A stretch of 64,000 nucleotides of DNA from a bacterium. GTDB taxonomy: Bacteria; UBA8248; JACPRG01; G963555815. Made by a program: the position numbers and the translations under genes. Location of the stretch: NCBI GenBank assembly GCA_965261595.1, contig CBDHDG010000006.1, positions 768,001 through 832,000 of the forward strand, read 5' to 3'. How positions within the stretch are numbered: position 1 is the first letter of the stretch; the number at the start of each line of letters is the position of its first letter. Positions 5,092-51,663 of the stretch are shown in pieces. The notes below the pieces were generated by a model. The model was not told the origin of the DNA. It worked only from the letters and a program-made list of their open reading frames with translations, and made no database searches.

Positions 5092-5358
5092 GCCTGACCT
5101 CCTTTCGGGAATCTCCGCGGACGTTCGTATTCAAGCCTATGTCCGCGGGGATGACCCAGGACGGAAGATGGGGAGGGGGGACGAGGGGGGGGGGGTGAGC
5201 CTCCGCCTATTCCCGCTCGATGGATGGGGCTAAGCGTCTCTCGTCTTTTCGGGCCGATGGTTTTCCCGTGATTATGCCTTTGACGCAGTAAGACACAAGA
5301 TATAGGTGCGATTTTGAGACACTACATGTTGTGGTTATCCAACAGGAGGGGGTCACTT

Positions 5359-5574
5359 TTAGGGACCCGTGGAACCACATATCCTCCCATTGATGATGGC
5401 TGGTGGCCCGACGTAAGAGCCCCGAATTTCGAGTGGGATGCGTTTCTTCGGCGGTTTCTTATTCCTTATCCCCATCAAGTAGAAACCCGCATAGAAGAGA
5501 AGATCAATAACCCTAGAGGCTGCTTCGGAGATGAACCATCCAAAAACGTCAAATCCTTCATATCTAAATTCCAT
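5359..5574 (-). CDS. Small hypothetical membrane protein (cassette passenger)
   Basis: GGAGAG upstream of ATG, hydrophobic stretch; 71 aa. Confidence 0.4.
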   Translation of the reverse strand: MEFRYEGFDVFGWFISEAASRVIDLLFYAGFYLMGIRNKKPPKKRIPLEIRGSYVGPPAIINGRICGSTGP

Positions 5575-5608
5575 TGCCTGGGCTCTCCAAGCTGCGGGTT
5601 AATGGAAC

Positions 5609-5641
5609 GCCACGGCTGGGGCCGTATACCCCAGCCGTGGC
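5609..5641 (-). terminator. Strong hairpin just after the 5644-6000 ORF
   Basis: GCCACGGCTGGGG ... CCCCAGCCGTGGC 13-bp stem; no clear U tract. Confidence 0.5.
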
Positions 5642-5643
5642 AC

Positions 5644-6000
5644 TTATTCACACGCGATGTCCTGTTGCGCCGATGCAATCCTCACTTCAAATTCACCGGC
5701 AAACCTGAATATCACCTTCTCAAGTTTGGGACTATTGAGATACCTATGTTGGGGCGGGTGTTTCCTGACAAAAAATACACGCCTCCGCTTTTTGTTGAAT
5801 CTTCCTCCAAGTCTCTCTACGGCCAAGTAGTCTCTGTCCTGAAGAACCTGCACCAGCAGTTTAAGTTTTCTCGGGGAGACATAGGCGGGTCGGCTAAAAG
5901 CCTTTTCCTTAAGAAAGCATTTCTTCCTCTTTTCCGCTCCTTCCCCCGTAACTGGGATTTGAGACACGAGAACAAACAAAACTCCGATCAACAAATACAT
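5644..6000 (-). CDS. Hypothetical secreted basic protein (cassette passenger)
   Basis: GGAGG RBS before ATG at 6000; signal-like MYLLIGVLFVLVSQIPVTG; K/R-rich. Confidence 0.55.
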   Translation of the reverse strand: MYLLIGVLFVLVSQIPVTGEGAEKRKKCFLKEKAFSRPAYVSPRKLKLLVQVLQDRDYLAVERLGGRFNKKRRRVFFVRKHPPQHRYLNSPKLEKVIFRFAGEFEVRIASAQQDIACE

Positions 6001-6291
6001 GGCATTTCCTCCGTCATCGAACGCACATCCAGAAAAACGAGGTTGACACGGGCTTGGGGATTTGCTACAAGGAGGGTCTGTGAGGTCCTCTCTTGTAGCA
6101 ACGCCCCGGGGTTCCCTCGGGGCTTCCACCCTTTGAAGTTCCATATACCACATGTAGTGGGTCGGATTCAATTTTCGAGGGACCACCATATCTTGTGTCT
6201 TACTGCGTCAAGGGCATAATCACGGGTTTTCCCACCCCGCGTCTGACAGGGTGGGCGTAAGCTCGCCTCTTATCCTTGTGAGAAGCGCGGG

Positions 6292-7166
6292 TCACCCCCC
6301 CCCGCGCGAGTTCGAGATCAGGGCGATGCCGATACAGACCACAACCGCGCTGATCGCCAGACGCCACGTGATCTGTTCCAGGTGCTGAAAGAAGATGCGC
6401 GAGATCAAGGAGGAAAACAGCGCCATCGTGTAAATCAGGGGAGTGGTGAAACTGACGCTCGAATCGCCCATGGCCGAGAAGTACGCGAAAAAGGCCGTCG
6501 AATAAAAGACGCCCGCGGCGAGAAAGGTCAGGAACGCCTTGCGGTCCAGGGTCCATCGGTTGTCCCGGGGGATCGCCGGCGTCATCGCGAACATGAAAAA
6601 CAGCGCCCCAGGGCGGAAACGGCGTTCCCGAAGATCCGATCCGCCTGCGCCAGCAGTCCCAGCCGCATGAACACGGGGCTCGTGCTGTAAGCCAGGGCGG
6701 GGAGCAACCCCAGGAGCGCGGTCCGGAGATGGATGCGGATCTTCGAGCGGTCCATCACAACGTTCATGATCCCGCCGACGATGAGGAGGGCGCCGGCCAA
6801 CAATAGGAGCGAGGGGCGCTCGCCCAGGAACGCCACGGCGATCAGGATGCTGAACAGCGGGGTGAACGCCACCATGACAGACGCGCGCGACACCCCAATC
6901 CGCCGGACGCTGAAGTAAAACAGTAGCCGTCCGGGACCCGTCGAGCAAAGCCCCATCAGCAGAAACCACATCGCCGCCGTCCAGGAATTCTCCGGACCCA
7001 GCCCCCGGAGGTAGAGCGCGGCCGCGAAGGCCACAAAAACCACGGACGACGTGATGACAGCCGCAACGTAGGGGCCGGCGGTCCGGATCCCCAGACGGGT
7101 GAGGACATCACCGGTCCCGAACAGGAATCCGGCGAACAGTCCCCATAGAAGAGCCGTGCTCAGCAT
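6292..7166 (-). pseudogene. EamA/DMT transporter, frameshifted near 6605
   Basis: Two frames join into a full paralogue of the adjacent DMT gene (RRIGVSRAS, FLGERPS, LEQITWRL). Confidence 0.8.
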
Positions 7167-7371
7167 GCGCCGCCTTCGAAGTCGAGCGGGAAGATCGATA
7201 TCCAACCCGGACCGGATCGGACAAATGCCCGGCGGGCCTTCCGCCGGGAGACATTATGCCACCGTGGACGCACGTCGTGCAGACCGTCCTTGAACCGAGA
7301 CCTCTCCTCGCGTGTCGGAGAGACCCAAGGGGGCGGGAAAAGGGGGCCGCCTTCGGCTCGGGGCCTTACCC

Positions 7372-8229
7372 TCACTTGGAGATGGATATCAGGAAAACCC
7401 CGATAAAGACCACCACGCCCCCAACGGCGAGCCGCCCCGTGATTTGTTCGAGACTTTGAAAGAGAAGGCGGGCGAGCAGGATGGCGAACAGGGGCGAGGT
7501 GAAAGCGAGGGACGCGACAAAGCTGACGATTTCCGAGCCGAGGGCCGCGTGGTAGGCATAGAACACGACATTGTAGCATACGCCCGCGCCGAGGAATGTC
7601 AGGAACCCGCGCCGATCCGCGCCCCACCGGTCCTCGCGGGGGACGGCTTTTTGCGATGTCAGGAGCAAGATCAGCGCCCCAACGGACGAGAGCAGGCTTC
7701 CCAGAGAGGGATCGGGCAGGGATTGCATCCCCAACCGGATGAAAAAAGGCGTCAGGCTGAGGAAGAGAGTGGGCAACAGGCCGAGCAAGACGGCCCGGCG
7801 GTCAATCCGAATGCCCCCGCGGTCGGTCACAACGCTGAGCAAGCCCCCGACGATGATCACCGCGCCGAGAACCACGCGCCATGACGGCCGCTCCCCCAAC
7901 AGGGCCACGGCCGTGAGCATGCTGATCAGCGGGGTGACGATCACCAGGACCGAGGCCCGGGAGACCCCGATCCGGCGAATGCTGTAGTAGAACAGGAGCC
8001 TGCCGGGCCCGATCGCCGCCGCCCCCGTCAACAGGAACCAGCCCATGGCGGGCCAGAGGGGTCCGGCTTGCACCCCTTGGGCTGACACGATGACCGCAAA
8101 GAAAATGAGGCTTGCCCCGGAGTTGATGATCGCCCCGGTGAAGGGGGTTCCGTTGCGCAACCCCAACCGGGTCAACAGGTCTCCGCACCCGAAAGCAAAC
8201 CCGCACACCAGCCCCCAAAACAGTCCCAT
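7372..8229 (-). CDS. EamA/DMT transporter
   Basis: ~10 hydrophobic segments, RRIGVSRASVL, LLGERPS. Confidence 0.85.
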   Translation of the reverse strand: MGLFWGLVCGFAFGCGDLLTRLGLRNGTPFTGAIINSGASLIFFAVIVSAQGVQAGPLWPAMGWFLLTGAAAIGPGRLLFYYSIRRIGVSRASVLVIVTPLISMLTAVALLGERPSWRVVLGAVIIVGGLLSVVTDRGGIRIDRRAVLLGLLPTLFLSLTPFFIRLGMQSLPDPSLGSLLSSVGALILLLTSQKAVPREDRWGADRRGFLTFLGAGVCYNVVFYAYHAALGSEIVSFVASLAFTSPLFAILLARLLFQSLEQITGRLAVGGVVVFIGVFLISISK

Positions 8230-8437
8230 CCCCACAATCAGGTTATCCTTGGCCGGGAAAGCGAAATAAACGGCATCTCTTTGGAAAACGGCCCGATCGA
8301 GGACCCGCGAGCTCTCCATTGAAAGCGGCCTTATGCCACGTTGACGAAAAAACGGCAGTGATTTCCTTGCGTGGGCTGCTGTATCATCGGAACTCACGTT
8401 ACCGGGTGCGAATCGGTTTTACAGGAGGGAAACGGCC

Positions 8438-8896
8438 TTGGCCGGCGGCGCGGCGAAATACTTCGAGGACTTCGAAACCGGCGAGCGATTCACAACGAGC
8501 GGACGGACAGTGACGGAGTTCGACGTCATGACGTTCGTCACGCTCACGGGGTACCTGGAACCCCTGTTCATCGACGCGGAGTACATCCGGGAAAAGAGCG
8601 GGTTCGGCGAGCGGATCGCGCCTGGGCTTTTGACGACGGCCTTCGCCGACGCCCTGATCGCCCAAACGGGCGTTCTCCACGGGACGGGGATGGCGCTCCT
8701 CGGGATCGAGGGATTGAAGATGAAGGCCCCCGTGAAGGTGGGCGACACCATCCGGGTGGAGGTGGAGATCACCGAGAAGCGCGAGACCAAAAAACCCGAC
8801 CGGGGGGTGGTGACCTCCAGACAGATCGTCCGCAACCAGCGGGGGGAGACGGTCGTGGAATACACCGTGAGCCGGTTCATCCGGCGGCGCGTTTAG
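8438..8896 (+). CDS. MaoC/PaaZ-like dehydratase (hotdog fold)
   Basis: YFEDFETG, RTVTEFD, GFGERIAPG, PVKVGDTI. Confidence 0.9.
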   Translation: MAGGAAKYFEDFETGERFTTSGRTVTEFDVMTFVTLTGYLEPLFIDAEYIREKSGFGERIAPGLLTTAFADALIAQTGVLHGTGMALLGIEGLKMKAPVKVGDTIRVEVEITEKRETKKPDRGVVTSRQIVRNQRGETVVEYTVSRFIRRRV

Positions 8897-8953
8897 CTTG
8901 AGTTTCTCACAAATTCCCTGAGGGGCGATTACGCTGGGGGGGACATCTTGAAA

Positions 8954-9018
8954 GGCGGCCCTCCGCACCCTGGTGGGGCGGGCTTCCAGCCCGCCCCACC
9001 AGGGTGCGGAGGGCCGCC
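8954..9018. repeat. Perfect 30-bp-stem palindrome built around a REP-like unit, between convergent genes
   Basis: 8954-8983 is the exact reverse complement of 8989-9018. Confidence 0.9.
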
Positions 9019-9034
9019 AAGATGGCCGCTTGCC

Positions 9035-9810
9035 TTAGCGGCAAAGACCCCGTCTTTTCGCAAGGTTATAGTTCCCGCACAGCCCTAACTCACATGCCTG
9101 TTTCCAATCAGGACATGCCCTTTCTTTCTTCCGTAATTTCACCATGTACAGAAAACCTCGGTTGCGGTACGCCAAAGCAAACTTGGGGTTGATCTCCAGG
9201 GTCTTGTTGAAATCGCCAATGGCCCGGTCATACAGACCCTTATTTTTGTAGGCAGCTCCCCGATTGTTGTAGCCTTAGCATCCTTCGGATTGATCTCCAG
9301 GGCCTTGTTGTAATTGACAATCGCCCGGTCATACTGACTTTTCTTCTGGTAAGAGTTTCCCCGATTGTAGTAGGCCCCAGCAAACTTCGGGTTGATCTCC
9401 AGGGCCTTGCTGTAATCGGCGATGCCCCGGTCATGCAGGCCTTTGTTCGCGTAGGCATTTCCCCGATTGTTGTAAGCCTCAGCAAGCTTCGGGTTGATCT
9501 CCAGTGCCTTGTTGTAATCGGCGATGGCCCGGTCATACAGGCCCTTGTTCTCGTAGGCAGCTCCCCGATTGTTGTAAGCCTTAGCATAGTTCGGTCTGAA
9601 CTCCAGTGCCTTGTTGTAATCGGCGATGGCCCGGTCATGCTGGCCTTTCTCGCCGTAGACAATTCCCCGATTGTTGTAAGCCTCAGAATACTTTGGGTTG
9701 ATCTCCAGTGCCTTGTTGTAAACGGAAACGCCGGTAGGTCTTTGACCGCATCCCAATAGGACGAGACCTACAGCGAAGCTGGACAGACTCAATTGAATGC
9801 TCCGTCTCAT
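9035..9810 (-). pseudogene. TPR-repeat lipoprotein, frameshifted near 9270
   Basis: LVLLGC lipobox; 34-aa (102-bp) AYNNRG...ALEINP repeats; restoring one base gives a C-terminus ACPDWKQACELGLC...RGLCR ending at 9035. Confidence 0.85.
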
Positions 9811-9989
9811 CTCCGAGTCCCCTTCTTCCGAGTCATTCCGTTGGAAGATATGTTGTAAAATAGGCTGAAGGATATCATCACAGGCTAGTGCTTGGTTACA
9901 GAGAGCCGCGTCATAAAGGTCGACGTAGCCTCGATCTGAGCGAAGGGCGTAGCCCGTAGCGAAAATCGAGAGAGAGGCCGCGATTTCCG

Positions 9990-10580
9990 CCGGTGGGGCG
10001 GGCATCTTGCCCGCCGCCGGGCTGGAAGCCCGGCCTACCAAATCGCGGCTACATCCCCCAAAATCCAGCCCAGGTTAGGACGCGAAACTATGCAACGAAG
10101 CACCAGTCGCCTTTATCGACAAAAGCCTTGCCTATCTTCTTCATACTTACTCCGCCGGGCGACCCTTCGGGATAGTGGACTTACCCGGGTTTCTCCCAGG
10201 TCAATGCGGGATTCCCCCATTCCCGGGAGGTCCTACGGTGCATGGATACAATTGTTCATACTATATCTTGCATTGAAACGACAGCCTAATTCACGCTTCG
10301 GAAAATTGGCCGGGGTTGAAAGAAGATTTCGCCTGGAAATCCCTTCGATGGTCGGGGTATGAAGGCCGTTGAAGAAAGGGGCGCGAGTGCTTGAAAAGGC
10401 GGCACTGGCAGGCAAGCTGCCAGTGGCGCGCTCTTGTTTCTATAAGGGCCGCCGGGCAAGATGCCCGGCCTACCGATGCAGGGGTGGTGGGGCGGGCATC
10501 CTGCCCGCCCGTCGATGCCAAACCGCATGGATTGATTTAAAGACAATAGGGTGCCACTGGCGGCTGGTCCGCCAGTGCCT
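9990..10580. repeat. Cluster of REP-like palindromes
   Basis: GGTGGGGCGGGCATC(T/C)TGCCCGCC at ~9992 and ~10487, inverted relatives at ~10018 and ~10452, paired CACTGGC...GCCAGTG units at ~10400 and ~10552. Confidence 0.7.
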
Positions 10581-10588
10581 CCTTACAA

Positions 10589-11767
10589 TCAAAACGCCGC
10601 CCGCAGCACCTCCTCCACCTGGGCCGGGTCCGTGATGGGTTTCGGGTTGTTCTTGACGGCCCGGCTGTGCATGGCCTCCGCCGCCAGGGAGGGGATGTCC
10701 GATTCCGGCACGCCGACTTCGCTCAACCGCCCCGTCAGGCCGCAGTCTTCCCGCAGTTTCAGAATGAAGTCGATCCCCTTCCGGCCCGCCTCCAGACCTT
10801 CGTCCGCGTCCTTCGCCGCCCCCATCGCCCGGGCGAGCTCGGCCTGTTGCGAGGCGGTGGCGTCCAGGTTGTACCGAAGGGCGTTGGGCAGGATGATCGT
10901 GTTGGAGACGCCGTGCCCCAGACCGTACCGCCCTCCCAGGACGTGACAGATTCCGTGATGGAGGCCGATGCCGGTGTGATGGACGGTGAAGCCCGCCAGG
11001 AACCCCGCCCGGAGCATCCACGTCCGGGCCTCCAGATCGCTTCCGTCCCTGACGCACCGGAGCAGGCTCCGGGCGATCCACCCCGCGGCGTCCTTGGCGG
11101 CGGCCAGGCCCACCGGGTCGGCGACGGGCGAATAGAGACCCTCGGCGCAGTGGGCGAGGGCGTTCATGGCGGATTCGGCCGTCACCTTCGGCGGCAGGCC
11201 GAGCGTAACCTTAGGGTCGTAGACGACGCAGAGCGGGAGGATGCGCGGGTCGCGGCCGGGGCGTTTCTGTCCCCGCTCCTCGTCGCGCTGGCCGGCGATG
11301 ATCGTCATCTCGGTCCCGGAATAGGTCGTCGGGACGCAAAGGTGGGGGAAGCGGCCGAACGTCTCGCCCTTGGCCTCGGCCTCGCGGATCCGCCACAGGC
11401 CCAGGGCCTTCCCCGTCCCCAGGGCGCTGCCGCCGCCGAAGCTGACGACGAAGTCGGCCCGGGCGTCCTCGGCGGCCCGGAAGGCGGCGTCCACCGTCTC
11501 CACGATGACGTGCGTCCGGACTCCGGTGAAGGACCCGGCCAGCCGACCGCCCAGGATGTCCCGGAGCCGTTTCCCCTCCGGGGAGTCCTTCGCCCGCTCC
11601 GTGCAGACGAGGAACACGCGCTTGCCGCCGAGGCGGTCCACGATCTCAGCCGTCCGGCTCAGGCTACCGGGACCGAAGTGGACTTCCTGCTCCTGCGTGT
11701 GGAATTCAAAGGTTTCGTTGGGTGAGATGGCGTGGGTCTCCTCAACACGGACTCGATAAAGCAACAC
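10589..11767 (-). CDS. Iron-containing alcohol dehydrogenase / maleylacetate reductase family (start uncertain)
   Basis: FGGGSALGTGK, VPTTYSGTEMT, NALAHCAEG, HHGICH, GHG. Confidence 0.9.
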   Translation of the reverse strand: MLLYRVRVEETHAISPNETFEFHTQEQEVHFGPGSLSRTAEIVDRLGGKRVFLVCTERAKDSPEGKRLRDILGGRLAGSFTGVRTHVIVETVDAAFRAAEDARADFVVSFGGGSALGTGKALGLWRIREAEAKGETFGRFPHLCVPTTYSGTEMTIIAGQRDEERGQKRPGRDPRILPLCVVYDPKVTLGLPPKVTAESAMNALAHCAEGLYSPVADPVGLAAAKDAAGWIARSLLRCVRDGSDLEARTWMLRAGFLAGFTVHHTGIGLHHGICHVLGGRYGLGHGVSNTIILPNALRYNLDATASQQAELARAMGAAKDADEGLEAGRKGIDFILKLREDCGLTGRLSEVGVPESDIPSLAAEAMHSRAVKNNPKPITDPAQVEEVLRAAF

Positions 11768-11783
11768 CCAAACGCGCTCTACA

Positions 11784-11814
11784 GGGTCAGCCGACCCGCA
11801 GGGTCAACCGACCC
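11784..11814. repeat. Two 14-bp hairpin units, 17-bp period
   Basis: GGGTCAGCCGACCC and GGGTCAACCGACCC; same family as 53566-53613. Confidence 0.7.
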
Positions 11815-11870
11815 GCGCCACACGGACGATTGGATTGATGGACAAGATAGGGGTCTGGAGGTCTCAAAGC

Positions 11871-12788
11871 TTATGCCTCAACCCACCCCGTCCCCTCATG
11901 GCCGAAACCAAAGACTTCCGGGTGGAAGATCTCGGCGAAGATCTCCAGGGACTCGGCGAGCCTCGGGCCGGGGCGGTTGAAGTACTGGTTGCCGTCGGTC
12001 AGGTAGACCCGTCCGTTTCGGACGGCCTTGAGGTCGTCCCACCCGGCCTTTCCCGTCAAGGCGGGCATCTCTTCCCGGGTCTTCTCGATGTCGTATCCGC
12101 AGGGGAAGAGGACGATAACGTCCGGATCGGCGTCGCGCAGCGTTTCCCACTCCATCCAGGAGGAATGCTCATTCTCTTTCCCGAAGAGGTTGGTCCCGCC
12201 CGCCATCTCCACCATCGTGGGCGCCCAGTTCCCCGCAGCCATGAGGGGGTCTATCCACTCGATACAGCCGACGGTGGGACGGTCGGCGATCATCTCGGAC
12301 CGGGCGGCGATCTCCTTCATTCGCGCCCGCAATCTCCCGATGAGGGCTTCGCCCCGGTCCTCGGCGTCGAGCGCGCGGGCCACCCTGCGGATGTCCTCCC
12401 ACACGTCCCCCAGGCCGTTGGGCTCGAGCGAGACAACCTGGGGGGCTTGGCCGCCCGTGAAGCCGCACACGGCCTCCTCCACGTCCTTCAAGCTGACGGC
12501 GCACACCTCGCACTGGGTCTGGGTGATGATGACGTCCGGCCGCACGGCCTCCAACTCCTCGGCGTGCACGCGGTAGACCGAGAGGGCCTCCTGCAAAATC
12601 GCCTTGACCCGGTCGTCGATCTCGCAGGAGGCTCCCTCGGTGTTGAACTTCGGCTCGGTGAGGGCCGGCAGGGAGGCGACAGACGCGGGAAAATCACACT
12701 CGTGGGAGCGGCCGACCATCTGGCCCTCGAACCCGAGCGCGCAGACAATCTCGGTGCCGCCGGCAATCAACGAGACGATCCGTTTCAT
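11871..12788 (-). CDS. Cobalamin/Fe-siderophore-type substrate-binding protein (BtuF-like)
   Basis: RIVSLIAGGTEIVCALG, GRSHECDFP, TQTQCEVCAV, YFNRPGPRL. Confidence 0.85.
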   Translation of the reverse strand: MKRIVSLIAGGTEIVCALGFEGQMVGRSHECDFPASVASLPALTEPKFNTEGASCEIDDRVKAILQEALSVYRVHAEELEAVRPDVIITQTQCEVCAVSLKDVEEAVCGFTGGQAPQVVSLEPNGLGDVWEDIRRVARALDAEDRGEALIGRLRARMKEIAARSEMIADRPTVGCIEWIDPLMAAGNWAPTMVEMAGGTNLFGKENEHSSWMEWETLRDADPDVIVLFPCGYDIEKTREEMPALTGKAGWDDLKAVRNGRVYLTDGNQYFNRPGPRLAESLEIFAEIFHPEVFGFGHEGTGWVEA

Positions 12789-12903
12789 GCGGGCGCTCCT
12801 TCCAAGTTCAAAATCGCGGGGGGGGAGGTTAAAAAAACCCTGGTTGAATCCTTGTTCACCAGTCTTTTGAGCCCCCTTTTATCAGCGACAGAGCGGATTC
12901 ACC

Positions 12904-15108: not shown

Positions 15109-15522
15109 CGCTCCTGGAGGTGAATCACCATGTTCTGGTACGGATCCCGCTTCGGCGGATCCCCCTCCCCCTCCCGCCGCGAGAGATCGGCGGCGGCCAT
15201 CAACCGGGCGGCTTCGGAAAAAACTCCTTCGGGCCGTGTCGCCCGCCTGCCGCGCCCGAAAAAACCGTCCTCCGTCTTACGGTGGATCCCCTCCAGAATC
15301 GGTCGCGCGCGCGGGGCGGATTCCGATGGATATTCTACGCGTTGAGACTTGTTTGAGGAAAACTTCCGAGGGAGCGCAAACGGGTCATCCAACTGACTTC
15401 GGGAGGGAGGACGACCCGCCGGGGGCGGATTCCAGACGGATTCGGTTTGTCCTTTCTTCAAGAGACGGGGAGAGCGCACATCCCGCAAATTGGTTGCGGA
15501 GACGACGCGCCCTCCCCTCCCT

Positions 15523-16527: not shown

Positions 16528-16689
16528 CCTACGTCCTCCCTTGAACATGGACCGCCATGCCCTTGATGTGATCACCTTTGAGCGGGCGCTTCTAAATCCC
16601 GCCCGGTTGGGACAAACCTGCGTCAGATTCATTCCATGCCCGATAACTTTCAATCCTACCATAGACGCAATCTGTCGCCCCCGGATTTT

Positions 16690-18981: not shown

Positions 18982-19210
18982 GCGTGCCTTCTTTCCTGAT
19001 TGAACATCATGGGTCCGTGGAATCGTGTCATGCGATCCCCTCCAGTTTACCACGAGCGCGAGCGGCCGATGGCCGATGGCCCCCGGGCGAAATCTTTACA
19101 CCGATTTCCGTTCAGCTTAGATTGAGGGGCGTCCGGAACCCGACCCATCCCATTCCGGGGCGCGGATTCGTCCGTTCTTTCAGAAATCCCCTTTCCATTG
19201 GAGCGCCCGG

Positions 19211-19867: not shown

Positions 19868-19938
19868 GCCGTCCCGCGGGAAATGGGCAGGGTGAAAGAA
19901 GGCTTTCCTCATATGGTTGTCATACATAGAGAGAGACG

Positions 19939-35848: not shown

Positions 35849-36097
35849 ATGCGCCTGTCGTGGAATGAGATTCGCGCCCGCGCCGCCGCCTTCGCGCGGG
35901 AATGGGCGGGCGAGGGCTACGAGAAGGGGCAGACCCAGCTCTTCTACAACGACTTCTTCGATGTCTTCGGCTTGTCCGTCCGCAGGGTGGCCGCCTTCGA
36001 GGAACCCGTCAGGAACCTCGACAACACGCACGGCTACATCGACCTGTTCTGGCCGGGCGTCCTGCTCGTCGAGCAGAAGAGCGCCGGGCGCGATCTA
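35849..36097 (+). pseudogene. N-terminal fragment of an MmeI-family (Type IIL) R-M enzyme, cut by IS630
   Basis: LSWNEIRARA..FAREW..YEKGQTQ.FY..FF, IDLFWPGVLLVEQKSAG. Confidence 0.85.
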
Positions 36098-37211: not shown

Positions 37212-37363
37212 GCGAGGTGTTGCTTGTGTATGCCACCGATGATCGCTATCTTCTGAGCAGCTAAAGTTACAGCGAACTACGCGACTTTCGAACAAACGCT
37301 CTGCTTCTAGCCAGCCCCAGAAGGAGCGCCTGGTAAACAGATGAAAGCGACCACCGTCGGGGA

Positions 37364-42119: not shown

Positions 42120-42586
42120 GAACTTACCGGATGACGCGGACCGCTTCATGGGCTGACCGAACTATTTTGCGCGTTGCCGGCGGTGTTCCGGTGAACGAGG
42201 TGCTTGCCACGTCGCGCTTGCTAGCGGGCGAATGACCGCCCACAGACGACGATCTCGCCTCGGGTCCCCTCTCTCTCTTCCCTTCGGAAAACAAAATCTC
42301 GTCTTACAGCGTCGCGCTCGACGAAATACGAAGCGGCGAGCGTTGCGATGTCCAATACCTCCAACACGGCTTGGTAAATCTCGATTCAGAAACTTTTGCC
42401 CGCTCGGTTGACCCTGGGTCGCGATAGGCGTGGAGCATGAGGGCGAGCGCAAAAGGCGAGGCAAACCCAGCGACGTGGCGCTATCGGTGATCCTGATCGG
42501 ACCGAGCGGTTCGACCACGGACACCCACCCGGCGGGTCGGTGTTCCCCTCGACGATCCCGGCGATTCGCCTTCTGCTTCTGACTAG

Positions 42587-44281
42587 CCTGGATATCTCAC
42601 AAAGAAAGAGAGCCAAGCCGGTTTTTTTCGGGTAAACTCTTTTTGATCAACGGGTTGCCCGAAGAAAGGAGACCGACTTGACTCGCACACAGTGTATCGC
42701 AGAACAGATGGAATTCCAAGGGTTGGGTTCTCGGCGTGTGATCGCCACTTCCAACGGCGGGGCGATCACCTCTGATGCGGGCGGTCTTTTGCTACGCGAC
42801 ACCGAGGGGCGGGTGAAGCTGATCGCAGGCTTCGCGGCCTGTTTTGAGGACGGTCGGGACGCGAGGCGGGTGGAAGATGAGTTGTGGGCGTTGTTGCGGC
42901 AGCGGGTGTACGCGCTGGCGCTTGGCTATGAGGACGTCAATGACCACGAGCGGCTTCGCTTTGACCCGATGCTCCAGATCCTCTCGGGCAAGCTGGAGGC
43001 CACGCGGCGCAAGGGGGGTCCGGCCCTTGCGGGCAAGAGCACGCTGAACCGTTTGGAGCGTCTTGCGGGCGATGGCGATGAGCGCTACCACAAGATCGCC
43101 TACCGAGGCGAGGCGATCGACCGGCTGTTGGTGGAGGGCTTCCTTCGGTCGCAGAGGCGGGCGCCGGGTCGGATCGTTTTGGACATCGACGCCACCGACG
43201 ACCCGGTGCACGGCTGTCAGGAGGGGCGTTTCTTCCACGGCTATCACGGTCATTACTGCTACCTTCCGCTTTACATCTTCTGCGGGGATTTCCTTTTGTG
43301 CGCTCGGCTTCGGCCCTCCAATATCGACGCCTCCTCGGGGGTGGTGGAGGAGTTGGAGCGGATCGTTGCCCAGATTCGGGCACGCTGGCCGCAGGTGTCG
43401 ATCCTGCTTCGGGCGGATTCGGACTTCTCGCGCGAGTGGATCATGGCCTGGTGCGAGGCGCAGGGGGTGGATTACGTGTTCGGCCTGGCCAAGACCTCCC
43501 GGCTGCAGGAAGCGGTGAAGGACGAGCTGGCCGAAGCGAAGGCGCGTCATCAGAGCACGGGGAAGGGGGCGCGGTTATTCCGGTCGTTTCCTCACCGGAC
43601 GCTTACATCCTGGAGCCGGGTGCGGCGGGTGGTTGCCAAGGCCGAGCACCTGGCCAAGGGCGCCAATCCGCGCTTCATCGTGACTTCGCTGGACGAGGAG
43701 GCGATCGACGCGAAGCCTCTGTACGAGCGCATCTACTGCGCCCGGGGGACGATGGAGAACCGGCTCAAGGAGCAGCAGCTCGACCTGTACGCGGACCGGA
43801 CGTCGTGCACGCGGATGCGCTCCAATCAGTTGCGGCTCTACCTGTCGGCGGTGGCCTATGAACTGATGCATGCGTTGCGTCGGCTAGGCCTTCGGGGGAC
43901 GGCGTTTGCAAAGGCAACGTGTGGAACGGTGCGGACGCGGCTGCTGAAGATCGGGGCGCAGGTTCGGGTGAGCGTGCGGCGAGTGCACGTGGCCCTTGCG
44001 ACGGGTTATCCGTACATGAATGTGTTCTTCCACGCCTGGCGGAACCTGCGCGCGGGGCCGGAGGGAGAGCCCGCCGTCTAAGACAGATTGCAAAATGAAC
44101 GCGCAGGGAGTCGAGGCAAACGTGCGTGCGGAGCCGAGCCAAATCGGCCAAAAAGCCCCTCTCACGGGTCAACTCCAACCACCCACCGGCCCTGGTTCCA
44201 CCGTAAAAGCGACAGACAGGAAAAAACACTCCAATTCACACCCGATAATCCATCCGCCGAGTGGGGGGTGAGAAATGCGGG
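42587..44281 (+). mobile_element. IS1380-family element (transposase 42678-44081)
   Basis: TSDAGG, LDIDATDD, LRADS, RGTMENRLKE; TIRs CCTGGATATCTCAC / CCCGCATTTCTCAC; CTAG on both sides. Confidence 0.93.
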
Positions 44282-44303
44282 CTAGGCGCCGTCTTTGCCC
44301 GGC

Positions 44304-45707
44304 TGGACCGCCCCTGGGTTATTGGACACTCGGGTGAGGGTATTCGACCTCATGCGGCCTCCGCAACTTGAGCGAGTTTTTCCTGCCTTGCCTGGGCCGG
44401 CGTTCGGTAGCCGTAGCCCTCGAGAATCCAATGATGGTTATACAGGTTCTTGAACTCAAGCAGCGCCCACCGCAGTTCCTCTACGGTGGCGAAAGAGCGC
44501 ACCCACAGGAGATTCTCCTTCAAGATGCGGATGAACCACTCACAGTAGCCATTTCCCTCGGGCGCCCGCACGAAGCTGGGCGAACTGGTCATGCCCAGGT
44601 AGGCGATCTCCCGCTGAAAGTCATCGGACAGATAGGCGGGGCCGTGGTCGTGACGAACTTTAAGCCCCTCGGCGACGTCCGCCTCCAAGCCGGCGAAGCG
44701 CTCGGCGACCCCCTGCCGGATCGGCTCCAGGGCCTCGAAGCGGTTGCCGCTCTTGGCCGCATGGATCCCCACGCAGTCCACCGAGCAGTGATCCACCGCC
44801 ACGAACACCGAGGCCATCCCCTCCTCGGTGGTCACCGTCGTCGTCATGTCCGTGCCCCACATTCGGTCGGGCCGCTCGGTGCGGATGGTCCCGTTGTGGG
44901 CCTTGGGACCTCGGGGTTTGCCCACCCGGTGGGGGGCCTGAAGCCCCGCCTCCCGCATCAGGCGACGCACCCGCTCCTTGCTGGTGCGGATGCCCGCGAA
45001 GCGCAGCCTCGCCCACACCTTGCGGTAGCCCTCGCCATGGAAGGGAGAGTCCTCCAGGACCTGCCGGATGTGGCCGAGGAGTTCCGCATCGGTGCACGGG
45101 CCCACAGGGCCGCGCTTATTGGGCGTGGGGCGTTCATGAACGGGGACCGCCTCTCGCCGCCGTTGCGCGTAGACCGTGGAGCGCGCCAAGCCCCAAAGGG
45201 CGCACACCCGCTTCAGGCCGTAGGCTCTGCCCGTGGAGGTGAAGCGGGCCTGACTCATCGCCTCCACCTCCTGCCGGCTAAAGGGCGGCCGGCCTCCAGG
45301 CGGTCGATCTTCTCCCGCAGGACCTCGCCCTCCATCGTGAGTTCGCCCACCTTGGCCTTGAGCCGGGCGTTCTCCTCGTCCCGCTCATCCGCCGGGCGGG
45401 CTTTGAGCGCCGCCTCGCCCCCGCGAAGGAACGCCTCGCGCCAGGCGGAAAGCCGAGCCGCTGTCGTGCCCAACTCGCGGCAGAGCGTCTCCAGGCTCTC
45501 GCCCCGCAAAAGACGCAGGACCGCCTCCCGCTTGCGCTGGCAGGAGAACCGACCCCGCTCACTGCGATGCCCTGGGGCCTTGGCTCCGTTCGCCCTGCGG
45601 GCGCCCTCCGCCAAAGCCCCCTCTTGCTTTTGTTCGTTCATCGCGACACCCCTTTCTCCATGAATCATGGATCAATCGAGTGTCCAACAAAACCCTAGAG
45701 CGGGGGA
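44304..45707 (-). mobile_element. IS3-family-like element, copy A
   Basis: HTH orfA plus DDE orfB (WGTD, RHDHG, PEGNG..E); imperfect TIRs; CGGC duplicated. Confidence 0.9.
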
Positions 45708-45820
45708 CGGCTTCGGCAACATGCTCTTGTGCTTTTGCCCCAAAAACCGGAAACTGGCGTAATCCTGCGTTCAGGCGTTGTTGGCGATTTTGTGCCGGAA
45801 GGCACATGGAGGATCTTTGC

Positions 45821-48367
45821 ATGCCCACGGCCAGCAGATGCCGCGCTCATTCGATTCTTCAGGCGGTCGTCCTGGCGATGATCTCGGTGGTGACGACGAA
45901 TGTCGCGGCGCAAGACGGGGCCGCTGACGGGAATCCGTCGGCGGCCAGCCATATTACCCGTCCCGCGGCGGACATGACGCGCCCCGTCGCCGTGATCGAC
46001 CGGCGCGATATCGAACTCTCCGGCATGACGAACCTGGGGGACCTGCTACTGAGGCGCTCGGTGTACAACAGTTTCGGCATCTATCGACCGTTCGTCCTCG
46101 GAAGCGGCCGGTCGCGATTCTCGTCAACGGGCGCCGCATATCCGATTCAACCTTCGATTTCGACGCCCTCCCCATATCGGCCGTCGAACGGGTCGAGATA
46201 CTGAGCGATACCGCCGCCGCCCTGCACGGTGGACACGCAATCGGCGGCGCGGTCAACATCGTGCCCAGGCGTGGTTACGAAGGCATTGAAGTCCAGGCGG
46301 GCGCGTCCCGGCCGACTCAGCAGGCGTGTGGCGATTCCGAGCACGGGAGTGCCCTGTTGGGAGGTGCGCTTGGGCGCGGTCGTCTGGTCATCGGCGTCGA
46401 CACCTTCCGACGACAGGAGATACGCGACGCCGACCGGGACTACGGTCGCGCTTCGTGGATGCCGGGCGGCTCGTTCGCCGACGCGTCCGGCGTTTCGGTG
46501 GGCGGCAACACCGTCTTCATCAGCACCACTGACGGCTCGATCGCCCGTCCTCTCGGCGACTGTGAGGGAAGCGCCTACGCCAGTGGACTCACCAACCCCT
46601 TCGATATTCCCGGAACGGGCTGCGGTTTTGCCTACTCCGCCATCAAGTGGCATTGGGAGCGTCTCAGGCGAGACAGCGTGTTCCTCAACGCCGATTACCC
46701 TCTTGTCCGGGGCGTGAACATGTATCTTGACGCCCGGACCGCGCGGGGTGAAACCGACTTCCGGTATGCTCCATCGGTCGATTCCTTCTCCTTTGCGCCC
46801 TCGGAGGACTTCAAGGATGAACTGCTTGAAAAATATCCTGAGATTAAACGTGACGATCTCAAGAAAGTTAGAGTGTTCCATAGATTCGTCGCCCACGACA
46901 ATCGCGACTGGCAGACGGATATGGAGGAGCATGATCTCTCGGTCGGCGTCCGGGGCCGGTTGTACGGCGTCGGCTATGACGCACATCTTCGCTACTATCT
47001 GTACGACGCGGTTGAAACCGGCGACACGTTCGTGAGCAGGAGCGCGATTGTGAAAGCCATTGGCGATGGACGTTATGACATCGAAAACCCGTTTTCGACG
47101 GACCCCGACCATCTGGCGGCCGTTCGGGAGACCGGCCTTCAACTCAAGCACGATCAGGTCACGGAGCACAGGACGACGCGGGTCTCGTTCAACGGCGCGG
47201 CGTTCCCACTCTCCGGAGGCCATGTCCTATTGGGCCGCGGGAACCGAAGTCGTGTCCGAGGACTGGCGAGACGTCCGCCGTTACCGGGACATCAATGACC
47301 GCTCCTACGACCCGACCGACGTGCTCGGCTCCGGCGGAACCTCGACATCCGGAGAACGGCGGCGTTGGTCGACGTTCGCGGAAGTCTCCATCCCGTTGCT
47401 CAAGGGTTGGGACCTCACCCTCGCCGGGCGGCGTGACGACCACGACGACGTCGGCGAGACATTCTCCGGACAGGTCGCGAGGCCGGTACCGGCTGAACCA
47501 AAACATCACGCTCCGCGCGTCCTGGGGCACGGGCGCCAGGGTGCCTGGCCTCGGTGTTCTCCACGTACGCGACGCGATCGACTATCCATTCATTTGCGAC
47601 CGGAGGATGCTCGTCGGCGATATCGGTGATTGCGACAGGCAACAGGTGGAGCGCGTGAGCGACGGGAACCCGAACCTGAAGCCGGACGACGCGGAGAGCC
47701 TCAACATCGGCGCCATGGCGTCCCTGGGGCCTTTTTCCCTGAGCTTGGACTGGTTCCGTATCAATCTTTCCGATGTGCCGACGAGATTCCCTGCGCAGTC
47801 CACCATCGACCTGGAAGCGAAAGGGCGGCGGCTGCCCTCCGATGTGAGGGTCATACGCGAAGGAGATGTCATCAGGGGGATCGAGAGCAAGTGGTTCAAC
47901 CTCGGGAAACTGACGTCGAGGGTCTCGACCTGCGGGGGCGCATCGATTGGAAAACCGATTTGGCGGATATGGCCTTCGACCTCCGATGGTCACACGTGAT
48001 CGAGCATGAAAGCCGGGCGGCCGGCGAGAAGGTGCCGGGCGACTACCCGCGAGACCGCGTCCACGCATCGCTTCGCACGACGCGAGGCGGCATCATCGCG
48101 AACTGGAACGTCCATGCGGTTTCGGACTATTGGAATACGGATAGAACCGCTCGCTACGAAAAGTGGATAGGGCATGATATTACGCTGAGCTGGCACGAGG
48201 CGTTCGGCTTGCTCGGGCTGAAGGTTGTGGGTGGCGTCCTCAATATCGGCGATCGCGGTCCGTCCACGGATTCCACGAACCCCGGCATTGATGGCGCGGA
48301 CGTGACTCTTGATTCCGCCCTGGGGCGTACGCTGTTCCTAAAAGCCAAAGTCTCCTTCCGCTTCTAA
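45821..48367 (+). pseudogene. TonB-dependent receptor, several frameshifts
   Basis: Signal peptide, PVAVIDRRDIELSG, AVERVEIL, AIGGAVNI, GNPNLKP, GRTLFLKAKVSFRF; frame breaks near 46110, 47220, 47480, 47905. Confidence 0.88.
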
Positions 48368-48446
48368 AGCGGGCCCAAGGCCCGTACTTGGCTGTTGAGC
48401 CGGGCGCGCGGCGTGGGCCGCGCTCGACCGGCAGGGGCCTACCCCA

Positions 48447-48529
48447 TGGATTCCTGCCCTACGTAGGAATGACAGACTAAATCCACGTCGATCCCCCCGG
48501 TCCGTCATTCCCGCGAAAGCGGGAATCCA
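48447..48529. repeat. Paired GTCATTCCCGCGAAAGCGGGAATCC-type palindromic repeats
   Basis: Inverted degenerate unit 48447-48473 and unit 48504-48529; partial unit at ~35776. Confidence 0.75.
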
Positions 48530-48739
48530 GTATCGCCGGAATAACCCCGCCGGGGGCCTTCCCTGCATCTCTTGGGCGGGGGCATGAGTGACAGACACGC
48601 GGCTACTGCGCCTTGATCTGGAGTGTCAGGATGAACTCGAGCAGGGCCGCTTTTTCGCCGTCCCGCCGTCCCAGGGTCCAATGATTCCACGCGGGCTTGT
48701 GCCGGTTTCGTCGCTTCGCCGGGCAGTTCCGGGGCCGTC

Positions 48740-49350
48740 TTAGAGACGTCCCGGAGGGTCGGCCAGGTAGTTGATGTGTATTCCGTTGACTGACGGAGGG
48801 GCACGAGATGAGGAGAAGGGGCGGATTTTGTGGGAAGTTGAAGGCGAAGGTGGCGCCGGAGGCGCTTTGGGGCGACGAGACGATTCAGGAGATCGCCTCG
48901 AGTCATGAGGTTCATCCGAACCGGCGTCTTCGCGTGGAAGCGCCAAGCGAGCGATGGTCTTGGTGAGGTGTTCTCGAACGGGGTCGAGCGGCGGGAGATG
49001 GGGGTGCGCGATCACACGGCGTTGAGCGTGAGCCGTCAATGCCGTTGGGTCTCGATGAGCCGGTCCTCGTTGTACTACAGGCCGCGCGGACAACCCGGCG
49101 CTGATGCGGCGCATCGATGAGCCGTTCCTGAAGCATCCGTTCTACGGCAGCCGCCGGATGGTCCGTCATCTGTGCCGCATCCCGCGCACCGGGTTTACCC
49201 GCATCTGCTCAAGGGCTTGGCGATCGAGCGGCCCGATCAGGTCAGGTGCGGCGCGGCTTCCCGTATCCGGTGGCGGTCATGGACTGGGCGAGCCAACATG
49301 TCTTGGCCTGGCGGCTCTCGAACACCCTGGACGCGGGCTTCCGTGTCGAG
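48740..49350 (+). mobile_element. Degenerate IS3-family remnant
   Basis: Broken frames LKAKVA..DETIQEIA..HEVHP, HPFYGSRRM, VAVMDWAS.HVLAWRLSNTLD. Confidence 0.8.
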
Positions 49351-49723
49351 GTGCCGGTTCGCCGGCGTCGCCTTTCAGAGGTGAGTGCGCGCCAGGGAGT
49401 GGGCACAATTCGCGAGACCGGGCAGAGACCTCCAAGGAGGCGACCCGTGGCGACAGATCAGCCAGGCGCCGTATGTACGAGACGATCCGGCTGCGCCTGA
49501 GGGGCCATTCCCCACTGCGAATCCCAGGTGGAACTCCGGGGTGGAAATCGCAGGGTCGTTGGCTTCCTCATCAGACTGGCAGCAGCCCACGGTAGGGTGG
49601 CCGTCGCGGGCGTAAACCGGATCTATAGCCGCGGGAAGGATCGCGCCAAAGACGAAATGGATGACGGGTTGACCAACGGCGCATACTCCAGATTTCGTGA
49701 CCGTTCAAGAAAGGAGTCCGACC

Positions 49724-50194
49724 GTGAAGAAGAGAGTTTACCTGGCAAACCCCTACGGGTTTTCACAACAACAGCAGCACGGGCTGCTTCCCGCCTTTGT
49801 AGAGGCGATTGGTTCGCTGGGAGCGGAGGTGTGGGAGCCCTTTCAGCGAAACAATCAGATCGACTTCACCGCGTCCGGATGGGCATACAAAGTGGGGCAA
49901 GCCGACCTGAAGGACGTTTTCGAGTCGGACGGTATTTTTGCCATCGTGAACGGGACCCCGCCCGACGAAGGAGTCATGGTAGAGCTCGGCGTCGCGATCG
50001 GCCTCGGGAAAAAGATCTTTCTCTTCCGCGACGATTTCAGAAGATGTACAGAATCGGAAGTTTATCCCCTGAACCTCATGCTCTTCACCGGTCTCCCTGA
50101 ATGGGGGTGGGAAGACCACTACTATACGTCCGTGAGCGAGATCCCTTCTCCGAAGAAGGCGCTGGCCCGGTGGGTGCGTGGTGAACTCGACTGA
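49724..50194 (+). CDS. Nucleoside 2-deoxyribosyltransferase family protein
   Basis: VYLANPYGF, VWEPF, DLKDV..SD, PDEGVMVELG.A..LGK; AAGGAG before GTG. Confidence 0.88.
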   Translation: MKKRVYLANPYGFSQQQQHGLLPAFVEAIGSLGAEVWEPFQRNNQIDFTASGWAYKVGQADLKDVFESDGIFAIVNGTPPDEGVMVELGVAIGLGKKIFLFRDDFRRCTESEVYPLNLMLFTGLPEWGWEDHYYTSVSEIPSPKKALARWVRGELD

Positions 50195-50348
50195 CCTGAT
50201 ACGCGACGCTATGATAGATGTTGAATGTTTACCTTGCCTGGACTCGGGCGGATCAGCGGTCGCCGCCGGTTCAGATATGGCGCATAGCCAACTTCGAGCA
50301 TACCTCTCGCATTTGTCCGATCATCGAAATCAGACGGAAGGTGTTGTA

Positions 50349-50731
50349 ATGCAGCTGTCATCGGCGATGTTTCGCGCCATCCGGGGCATACTGGGCATTC
50401 TGGGGGTCTGCATTGTGCTCGGCGCGTCGGGCAAGAGCGCTGCCGGAGAGCCGCGGCGGTCGGGGTGGTACATGGGCGCGGGCGCCGGGGCGAATTGGTC
50501 TTCCAGCATGTAGCAGATGGGCCACAACCGGGAAACGACCTGTTATCCGAACGACGATTGCAGTCATCTCCCCGGTGGAATTCCCGACGGCTATCGCTGG
50601 CGCTACGACCTGGAAGCGGATACCGGTGTTGCGTTCGAAGCTGCAATCGGCTTTATGTTCGACGGCGTGCGCCTGGAATTGTCAGCCAGCCAGCGAAACA
50701 ATGATCTTGAGCAGAAATTCTCTGGGGGTTA
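50349..50731 (+). pseudogene. Truncated outer-membrane beta-barrel gene with in-frame TAG at 50511
   Basis: Signal peptide, GWYMGAGAG, Cys pair, W.YD...G, RLELS, as in the 32891-33766 protein. Confidence 0.78.
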
Positions 50732-50755
50732 AAAAGGGGTCAGATCTATTTTTAA

Positions 50756-51663
50756 CGTATTTATATACTTGACACAGACGACCACAACATGTAGGTCGCG
50801 CCCGCGTCTCGGCTGACCACAAGATGTAGGGGCATGCTTCCATCGATCCGTTTCCAGAAGATGCGCTCTATCAGATCGTTCGGTTTCATTGATCGATAAA
50901 ATCCACGCGCTGAATATCGCCCTTTTCATTGAAGTGTAAAAACAACTTTTTGTTTATATGCAATGTGTTGTTGGTTTTTCCTTTTCTTCCGTACTTAAAC
51001 TCAAATTCAAGACCGCCCTCAAAAACGCCGCTTCTCTTCTGCTCTATAGGATATGTAGTGATCGTCAAACCACCCCATCCCTCCTGCAGGGATGGTATAG
51101 CTATTCTTGGCATATGGCTCTTTTGTCGGGTACAACTTATCAAATGTTGAGACGACATTTACAACCTCAAATGTCACCGGGAAAAGAGCTTTGTTGTTAA
51201 ACGTAGCACCAATCCGCAGTGATTTTACTACACCAGCTTTGTCGATTATTCTGTCAGTTCTCACACTATGAAAGTTAAGCATATCCGCAACTCTATTACG
51301 ATACCGCCATTCGCTGAATCGCAACAATCCCATAGAGGAAACTGAAAACAGAATGACCGCTCCAACATATAGGTTGAACAACTGGATATGTTGCGCAAAA
51401 CCGATCGTGACGCCAGCCGCCGTGACCGCAATGGGCCATATCCAGCTCCGCAGTAATTCACCCGCCAAAAAGAGGGCGACTTTGCGAAGCCAATTGAGCA
51501 TGATTCAGTCATTGTATGATCCCTCTTCGGTTGAGTCAAGCGCATAATTGCGAATCCAACTCCACCATGACTTGAGTTGAAGCATGCCCCTACATCTTGT
51601 GGTCAGCCGAGACGCGGGGACGATCTACATGTTGTGGTCGTCTGCGTCAAGTACATAATTCCG
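50756..51663. mobile_element. Second non-autonomous cassette with IS1595-like ends and no transposase
   Basis: ~85-bp TIRs (50756-50840 and 51579-51663); ATTTTTAA duplicated at 50748-50755 and 51664-51671; AT-rich interior. Confidence 0.9.
50886..51501 (-). CDS. Hypothetical membrane-anchored passenger protein, probably frameshifted near 51055
   Basis: Two N-terminal hydrophobic segments; ORFs 51019-51501 and 50886-51158 overlap. Confidence 0.55.

What the first reader, a model, noticed from the sequence alone, without database searches (positions are those of the whole stretch)
5267..51663. Two transposase-free mobile cassettes whose four ends each carry a pair of NrdR-box-like palindromes
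Seen: elements 5267-6224 and 50756-51663 have different cargo and mostly different end sequences, yet share the layout CG..TTAT...TTGAC(G/A)CAG followed by two 16-bp palindromes with core C-N-A-N-A-T-N-T-W-G. The eight boxes are at 5293 (ACACAAGATATAGGTG), 5319 (ACACTACATGTTGTGG), 6145, 6183, 50782, 50817, 51587 and 51622, with start-to-start spacings of 26, 38, 35 and 35 bp. Established: the NrdR box consensus is acaCwAtATaTwGtgt, it occurs in tandem pairs, and NrdR senses dATP/ATP. Inference: the host dNTP sensor may bind these transposon ends, tying mobilisation or passenger expression to nucleotide or replication state. I do not know of a description of this, but cannot check the literature. 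The spacings differ from the ~31 bp usual at nrd promoters, and the boxes could instead be transposase sites.
Basis: partly seen in the sequence, partly recalled or inferred. Interest (0 to 1): 0.8.

Follow-up and report, generated by a model that had tools for sequence, protein, structure and literature searches.

The report
Jumping cassettes with NrdR-type end sites
Two multi-copy jumping DNA cassettes that lack their own transposase carry, at each end, a conserved pair of sites matching the binding sequence of NrdR, the cell's sensor of DNA building blocks, which likely binds there weakly and would then tie their movement to nucleotide supply.

Summary
Observation confirmed. Both elements are transposase-free IS1595-family cassettes: 8-bp target duplications, about 11 copies each, and empty sites in other sequencing runs. 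The eight boxes score 11.5-19.3 bits on an NrdR matrix built only from ribonucleotide-reductase promoters of relatives, and nrdR is present. Across 23 distinct ends in two genomes, 44 of 46 boxes keep NrdR's six symmetric key bases while the spacers drift (55% identity). One box is inverted, as a two-fold symmetric binder would allow. The spacing is wrong for a normal operator: 26 or 35-38 bp in 22 of 23 ends, against 31, 32 or 42 at native sites. Published data show such off-phase pairs still bind NrdR weakly. Transposase-bearing relatives carry at most one degenerate box. Best reading (0.45): NrdR is a host factor that aids end pairing. Main rival (0.28): doubled transposase sites. Nothing here shows binding. 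The scan met these cassettes before, elsewhere in this genome, and two AI notes favoured the transposase; my tests lean the other way. Eight literature searches showed no report of NrdR boxes at insertion-sequence ends.

The parts
5259..5266 (+). E1 left target-site duplication (8 bp)
   Evidence: empty site (966 bp skipped) in runs X3, X8, X11
5267..6224 (.). Cassette E1, non-autonomous IS1595-family element, 958 bp, 49% GC against 63% for the genome; 42-bp terminal inverted repeats
5293..5308 (+). E1 left box 1 (14.3 bits), 26 bp from the tip
5319..5334 (+). E1 left box 2 (19.3 bits), 26 bp after box 1
5644..6003 (-). E1 cargo ORF, about 119 aa from the likely start, no family found; lies in a swappable internal module
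6145..6160 (-). E1 right box 2 (15.4 bits), 38 bp after box 1
6183..6198 (-). E1 right box 1 (17.9 bits), 26 bp from the tip
6225..6232 (+). E1 right target-site duplication
50748..50755 (+). E2 left target-site duplication (8 bp)
   Evidence: empty site (916 bp skipped) in run X4
50756..51663 (.). Cassette E2, non-autonomous IS1595-family element, 908 bp, 46% GC; 85-bp terminal inverted repeats (92%) that contain both boxes
50782..50797 (+). E2 left box 1 (12.4 bits)
50817..50832 (+). E2 left box 2 (17.1 bits), 35 bp after box 1
50886..51501 (-). E2 cargo gene, frameshifted here (160 aa + 90 aa frames); 204 aa in 1 of 11 copies; no family found
51511..51552 (-). Relic inner IS1595 end with a promoter-like site (TTGACT-17-TACAAT) directly upstream of the cargo gene
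51587..51602 (-). E2 right box 2 (17.1 bits), 35 bp after box 1
51622..51637 (-). E2 right box 1 (11.5 bits)
51664..51671 (+). E2 right target-site duplication

Best explanation
E1 and E2 are transposase-free IS1595-family cassettes, likely moved in trans by related transposases in the same genome, and the two boxes inside each end are likely bound by the host's NrdR, which would act as a DNA-bending helper for pairing the ends rather than as a normal repressor. Shown: element structure, recent mobility, descent from IS1595 ends, match to NrdR specificity, strong conservation of the boxes, off-phase spacing. Inferred: that the helper is the clade of G000:C7:637984-639734 and its kin; that NrdR is the binder; that the role is positive. 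Speculative: the half-turn-off spacing keeps one NrdR tetramer from being saturated by both boxes of one end, so that dATP/ATP-loaded tetramers can bridge or bend the two ends once transposase brings them together, and it keeps more than 50 such ends from draining NrdR off the nrd promoter. Movement would then be favoured when dNTPs are plentiful.
For: (1) Matrix from 36 boxes of RNR promoters, built without the elements: the eight boxes score 11.5-19.3 bits, leave-one-out range 5.8-19.2. The same matrix finds native pairs at 31, 32 or 42 bp before nrd, a dCTP-deaminase-like gene, smc, mutL/mazG and vsr-dcm (gene names by eye from translations). (2) 44 of 46 boxes in 23 distinct ends keep C4, A6, A8, T9, T11, G13, a two-fold symmetric set. 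C4/G13 and the central AT are the bases NrdR reads and kinks (PMC9110341 passages). (3) Of 30 possible core substitutions, the 10 seen cost 1.4 bits on average against 3.9 for all (p = 0.0002). Using only alleles absent from the window's boxes, 3 of 5 are tolerated ones (p = 0.038). (4) In one end (L065 right) box 1 is the reverse complement of the usual form. (5) Boxes are 84-88% identical among ten 35-spaced ends, spacers 55%, inner flank 26%. (6) Transposase-bearing relatives do not need the motif: none of 37 left ends has a second box (best second score 7.2), 28 of 31 metagenome left ends lack even one, and only 3 of 13 box-like helper ends keep all six bases. Box-less L128, L129 and L132 (about 70% identical transposases) share the same helix-turn-helix motif. 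(7) Off-phase pairs still bind: 19-bp spacer Kd 51 nM (Listeria) and 601 nM (E. coli) against at least 69 uM for one box, and reporter expression never exceeded 22% of the box-mutant level at any spacer tested (PMC12051234). (8) Boxes stand at both ends whatever the cargo, and cargo is often broken, which points to a role in mobility.
Against: Spacing: 22 of 23 ends lie at 26 or 35-38 bp (spacers 10, 19-22). Spacers 19-20 were at or near the worst tested for all four NrdRs, about 7- to 300-fold weaker than each protein's best spacers; spacers 10, 21 and 22 are not in that table. No in-phase third box was found within 300 bp. The motif has a directional bias: the tip-side half is the stronger one in 41 of 46 boxes (one end mis-registered there) and positions 14-16 show no NrdR-like constraint. 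A one-copy version of the motif sits at the same register in a subclade of transposase-bearing elements whose single origin is not rejected (AU p = 0.23), and in the same host other IS1595 elements have no box, so the motif tracks element lineage. The 23 ends share ancestry and come from two related genomes, so counts and p-values overstate independence. The training boxes were picked with a consensus pattern, which fixes part of the matrix shape. Recent papers argue that NrdR control is limited to RNR operons (10.1101/2025.03.28.645925). No binding, expression or circle data.
Confidence: 0.45

Rival explanations
1. The boxes are inner binding sites of the IS1595 transposase, doubled and optimised in the non-autonomous cassettes so that they can capture transposase in trans; the likeness to NrdR boxes is coincidence.
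For: Box 1 lies at the same register as a similar sequence in helper elements (8-11 of 12 bases), and one helper's 33-bp inverted repeat runs into it. Box-bearing helpers may be one clade. Most boxes point the same way. Spacing avoids NrdR's optimum. Transposase binding to subterminal motifs of non-autonomous elements is known in plants (PMC1636448, search listing and start of abstract only).
Against: The helper elements, which must bind their own transposase, keep the motif far worse than the cassettes (3 of 13 against 44 of 46), and close relatives lack it. Only one alignment column separates box-bearing from the six nearest box-less transposases. The conserved bases are two-fold symmetric, one box is inverted, and tolerated changes follow the NrdR matrix. 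The transposase shows no real likeness to NrdR (BLASTP E = 0.049 over 22 aa).
Confidence: 0.28
2. NrdR binds the ends weakly as a brake: it blocks transposase access or silences inward promoters and cargo genes when dNTPs are high.
For: Box 1 covers the position of the -10 element that drives transposase or passenger genes in helper elements, and several ends have a TTGACA just inward of box 2. Off-phase pairs gave partial repression in vivo.
Against: The tip promoters of E1 and E2 have already lost a consensus -10. E2's cargo promoter starts 48 bp inward of box 2 and the cargo is broken in 10 of 11 copies. A pure brake is hard to keep in an element that is filtered by its ability to jump (inference).
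Confidence: 0.13
3. Another dimeric protein with NrdR-like specificity (host-encoded, or the small antisense protein of the helper elements) binds the boxes, or the boxes are inherited relics without present function.
For: Half-integer phasing (26 and 35-36 bp) could suit a different oligomer. A conserved small ORF exists in helper leaders. The family is confined to two related genomes in the searches made.
Against: The small ORF occurs in box-less elements too. Only one ATP-cone protein, NrdR, was found in the genome. Box conservation far above spacer conservation argues against relics.
Confidence: 0.14

Closest known systems
Mobile insertion cassettes and passenger-carrying elements of the IS1595 family (Siguier, Gagnevin and Chandler 2009; not read, seen only as a citation in PMC8101967; assignment to the ISNwi/ISNha5 subgroups is recalled, not tested)
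   Same: 8-bp target duplication, short terminal inverted repeats shared with IS1595 transposase elements in the same genome, passenger genes, no own transposase; one family member keeps the last 14 codons of a transposase.
   Different: Each end carries a conserved pair of NrdR-type boxes that the transposase-bearing relatives lack.
NrdR operators of ribonucleotide-reductase promoters (PMC9110341, PMC12051234)
   Same: 16-bp box with the same conserved and variable positions, in pairs, in a genome with a canonical nrdR.
   Different: Spacing is 26 or 35-38 bp instead of 31-32 or 41-42; the pairs sit inside transposon ends, four boxes per element, not at an RNR promoter.
IHF at the outside end of IS10/Tn10 (PMC3159471, passages)
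   Same: A host DNA-bending regulator bound inside a transposon end that stimulates paired-end assembly is the model for the proposed role.
   Different: There it is shown biochemically and IHF is a nucleoid protein; here the factor would be a nucleotide-sensing repressor and binding is only predicted.

Membership tests
Non-autonomous IS1595-family cassette (MIC) | 8-bp target-site duplication | tested here: met
   Both window copies; 9 E1-family and 6 of 11 E2 copies; empty sites skip element plus 8 bp
Non-autonomous IS1595-family cassette (MIC) | Terminal inverted repeats shared with IS1595 transposase elements | tested here: met
   Best match 16-18 of the first 18 bases to three helper elements; helper protein is NF033547 IS1595 transposase, 200 bits
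Non-autonomous IS1595-family cassette (MIC) | No own transposase, passenger genes instead | tested here: met
   the one paired-box element holding an IS1595 transposase has it as a nested IS with its own 8-bp duplication
Non-autonomous IS1595-family cassette (MIC) | Mobilised in trans by a cognate transposase | not testable with these tools
   Inferred from shared ends, many near-identical copies and polymorphic insertion
Canonical NrdR operator | Box sequence matching NrdR specificity | tested here: met
   11.5-19.3 bits on an independent matrix; 44 of 46 boxes keep the six key bases
Canonical NrdR operator | Two boxes | tested here: met
   21 of 23 distinct ends have two intact boxes
Canonical NrdR operator | Boxes a whole number of helical turns apart (31-32 or 41-42 bp) | tested here: not met
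   35 x11, 36 x6, 26 x3, 37, 38, 43; native pairs 31, 32, 42
Canonical NrdR operator | nrdR in the host | tested here: met
   G000 and G006; the D15-x-R17 and RRRR residues are intact in G000
Canonical NrdR operator | Overlaps the promoter of a gene that it represses | tested here: inconclusive
   No consensus promoter overlaps the window's boxes; some other ends have a -35 beside box 2
Canonical NrdR operator | dATP/ATP-dependent NrdR binding | not testable with these tools
   Needs EMSA, MST or ChIP
Subterminal transposase-binding repeat | Motif conserved in the ends of the cognate transposase-bearing elements | tested here: inconclusive
   A single degenerate copy in 7 of 13 elements of the nearest clade, 3 of 13 such ends with all six bases, never a second copy

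The most novel reading that the evidence does not exclude
A family of transposase-less cassettes has co-opted the host dNTP sensor NrdR as a transposition host factor. Deliberately anti-phased box pairs let dATP-loaded NrdR clamp the two ends together in the transposition complex without acting as a repressor or being titrated, so that jumping is gated by nucleotide supply.
Probability: 0.4. Interest if true: 0.85.

Novelty: new variant of a known kind. Interest (0 to 1): 0.62.

Why it matters
NrdR is regarded as a repressor devoted to ribonucleotide-reductase operons. If it binds these ends it would be a metabolite-sensing host factor for transposition and a second, structural use of NrdR, testable with purified protein and a simple transposition assay. 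If the transposase is the binder, the cassettes still define the inner binding site of a family whose end recognition I found no study of. Either way the elements are active agents of gene carriage and rearrangement in this genome.

Tried and rejected
Wider distribution: the exact paired-box end pattern hit only one other genome, G006 of the same family, in the species-genome collection (5 loci) and among 60 relatives. It gave 0 hits in viral contigs and, slightly relaxed, 0 in metagenome contigs. A tip-free pattern hit 1 of 50 genomes. The E2 end gave no match in plasmids or phages. So co-occurrence with nrdR across phyla could not be tested. An autonomous paired-box element: rejected, the only candidate holds a nested IS. 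A hidden in-phase third box: none at 6 bits or more at an in-phase distance within 300 bp of 23 ends. Circle junctions: none listed in contigs of eight runs, which proves nothing because contigs drop rare forms. RNA: the one RNA run laid held only a diverged relative of E2's cargo. Known RNA families: 0 Rfam hits in five loci. Shared origin of the NrdR and transposase zinc ribbons: no support. Host of the box-bearing helper L121: a flanking transporter is 90-91% identical to proteins named as Dadabacteria; I did not test whether that host has nrdR, so this decides nothing. Atlas search with the small antisense ORF: no usable hit. Plasmid-borne transposases were all under 40% identical and were not followed up.
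Full report
Observation. E1 (5267-6224) and E2 (50756-51663) are each flanked by an 8-bp direct repeat and are AT-rich against a 63% GC genome. E1 has 42-bp and E2 85-bp terminal inverted repeats. For each end, 0 of 2000 dinucleotide shuffles reached the observed two-box score. The 16-mers are imperfect palindromes (3-6 of 8 pairs); the symmetric part is the 10-bp core.

What the elements are. The genome has 54 IS1595 transposase-domain matches. Three passenger-carrying IS1595 elements share the cassettes' tips (best match 16-18 of 18 bases), and the one tested is an IS1595 transposase by NCBIfam. PMC8101967 (passages) gives 8-bp duplications and an N-terminal zinc finger as family traits. E2 has 11 copies at 99.7-100% identity; 6 have their own duplication and in 4 of the other 5 the left flank matches the right flank of a different copy, a sign of rearrangement between copies. 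The E1 family has 11 left and 11 right ends, 9 paired with a duplication. Empty sites that skip exactly element plus 8 bp occur in contigs of other runs: E2 in 1 of 4 runs laid, E1 in 3 of 4. Descent from IS1595 is direct: one family member carries the last 14 codons of a transposase beside its paired-box end, E2 holds a relic inner IS end that supplies its cargo promoter, and a plain deletion derivative with one box exists. The only paired-box element with an IS1595 transposase inside has it as a nested IS with its own duplication. Cargo differs between family members: DNA-methyltransferase-like genes, unknown membrane proteins and others, judged by eye from translations.

The family. An exact pattern finds 54 paired-box ends in this genome and 5 in G006, a genome of the same family, and none in the other 59 genomes searched. 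The scan of all species genomes returned only those 5 loci; viral, metagenome, plasmid and phage searches were empty. I collected 23 distinct ends (16 from G000, 7 from G006). I left out one near-duplicate end, one end whose tip and box 1 are fused by a deletion, and one G006 right end that I could not locate.

Do the boxes look like NrdR sites? The genome has one nrdR with the DNA-reading residues intact, one RNR large subunit and no nrdD match. From 30 RNR loci of this genome and relatives I picked boxes with a consensus pattern and built a symmetric matrix from 36 distinct boxes of 22 loci. The eight window boxes score 11.5-19.3 bits, within the leave-one-out range of 5.8-19.2. Outside the elements the matrix finds pairs at 31 bp (4) and 32 bp (1) and at no other spacing between 16 and 60, plus the nrd pair at 31, a 32-bp pair before a dCTP-deaminase-like gene and a 42-bp pair. 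Among the 46 element boxes, 44 keep C4, A6, A8, T9, T11 and G13. These are the matrix's six most informative positions, and they include the G-C pairs and central AT that NrdR reads and kinks (PMC9110341, passages). The two exceptions are a 1-bp deletion and a box in an element whose other end is deleted. Among ten 35-spaced ends the boxes are 84-88% identical, the spacer 55% and the inner flank 26%. The 10 core substitutions seen are much milder on the matrix than a random 10 of 30 (p = 0.0002). Positions 14-16 show no such constraint. One box is inverted at the fixed box-1 position.

The spacing problem. Spacings are 35 (11 ends), 36 (6), 26 (3), 37, 38 and 43, while RNR promoters of the family use 31, 31, 32, 32+32, 42 and 32 in 6 of 7 loci. 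In PMC12051234 (abstract, passages and sections 2.5, 2.6, 2.7 and Discussion) spacers of 19-20 bp are at or near the binding minimum for four NrdRs, so these are not canonical operators. The same paper shows that they are not dead: Kd at 19 bp is 51 nM for Listeria and 601 nM for E. coli NrdR against at least 69 uM with one box mutated (a different DNA construct), and in vivo expression never passed 22% of the box-mutant level at any spacer, with Fur as a confound. PMC12176259 (passages) shows the tetramer is flexible. No in-phase third box lies within 300 bp.

NrdR or transposase? If the boxes were transposase sites, transposase-bearing elements should keep them. Of 80 metagenome loci fetched, 31 had a usable left end; with 6 from G000 and G006, none of these 37 has a second box and 6 have a box-like sequence at 8.9 bits or more. 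In the 13-member clade nearest the helpers, 7 carry a single degenerate box over the -10 position and 6 carry none. One origin of the box-bearing group is not rejected (AU p = 0.23), although the best tree needs two changes, and only one alignment column separates box-bearing from box-less transposases. Only 3 of 13 box-like helper ends keep all six bases. The extra constraint in the cassettes (central AT and G13) is what NrdR needs. Against this, the motif clearly grew out of the helpers' end sequence, mostly points one way, and is absent from other IS1595 elements in the same NrdR-bearing host. I put NrdR as binder at about 0.58 (0.45 helper, 0.13 brake), the transposase at 0.28 and other explanations at 0.14.

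Mechanism. Boxes stand at both ends whatever the cargo. E2's cargo is frameshifted in 10 of 11 copies and has a separate promoter, and the tip promoters have lost their -10. So the selection on the boxes most likely acts through mobility (inference). By analogy with IHF at IS10 (PMC3159471, passages), NrdR bound just inside the transposase site would bend the ends or bridge them in the paired-end complex, which would help an element that must borrow transposase in trans. The off-phase spacing would leave each tetramer a free arm and limit titration of NrdR by more than 50 ends. These last steps are hypothesis.

Novelty. Searches for NrdR boxes with insertion sequences, mobile elements or transposon ends, and for IS1595 cassettes and subterminal sites, listed no paper describing this; I judged that from titles, term counts and abstract starts, and subscription journals are mostly outside the library. 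A 2025 preprint (10.1101/2025.03.28.645925, passages) argues that NrdR control is confined to RNR operons; its supplements were not seen. Two earlier AI notes on other copies in this genome reached the same identification but favoured transposase sites on the spacing argument; I tested that argument as above. Another note reports NrdR pairs at island ends in a different genome; I did not test it.

Verdict. A real, conserved and apparently undescribed end architecture on a known kind of element. Interest 0.62, limited by the narrow distribution and by the unresolved identity of the binder.

Noticed in passing
L031:2303-2455 (+) (G000 contig C7, left leader of the helper element) and leaders of L120-L151, L201, G000:C5:10860, G000:C6:703409: A basic ORF of about 50-60 aa lies antisense in the 200-nt leader between the left end and the transposase start, back to back with it. 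All 27 leaders examined have such an open frame, and by eye 26 share a motif, across transposases of 47-76% identity. It may be an undescribed accessory gene of this IS1595 clade.
   Followed up: partly
window 5579-6028; G000:C5:343476, G000:C6:1313036: The E1 family has swappable internal modules: 958-bp type A (window), 958-bp type B and a 1315-bp type with both, each module ending in a hairpin; the + strand frame stays open across all three types.
   Followed up: partly
G000:C6:1638040, C6:1127359, C6:1740928, C1:205130, C7:790278, C2:98756, C4:419204: Canonically spaced NrdR-type pairs (31, 32, 42 bp) before non-RNR genes: dCTP-deaminase-like, smc, mutL/mazG, vsr-dcm and others (names by eye). 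This hints at a wider NrdR regulon in this lineage than published for E. coli and Pseudomonas.
   Followed up: partly
G000:C6:1667271 and C7:905605; C7:29393, C7:9653 and C3:130268: E2 copies with exchanged flanking 8-mers, pointing to recombination or replicative rearrangements between copies.
   Followed up: partly
window 51894-53286, 44304-45696, 62438-63843: Three copies of a 1.4-kb IS that has well over a hundred near-identical copies in the genome and often inserts into the cassettes.
   Followed up: no
window 51632-51635 region and many box-1 sites of the 35-spaced ends: Box 1 often ends in GATC at the position of the old -10 element, which recalls Dam control of IS10 and IS50 ends (recalled, not tested).
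   Followed up: no
window 9156-9780: 102-bp tandem repeats (34-codon units) inside an ORF, probably a repeat protein.
   Followed up: no
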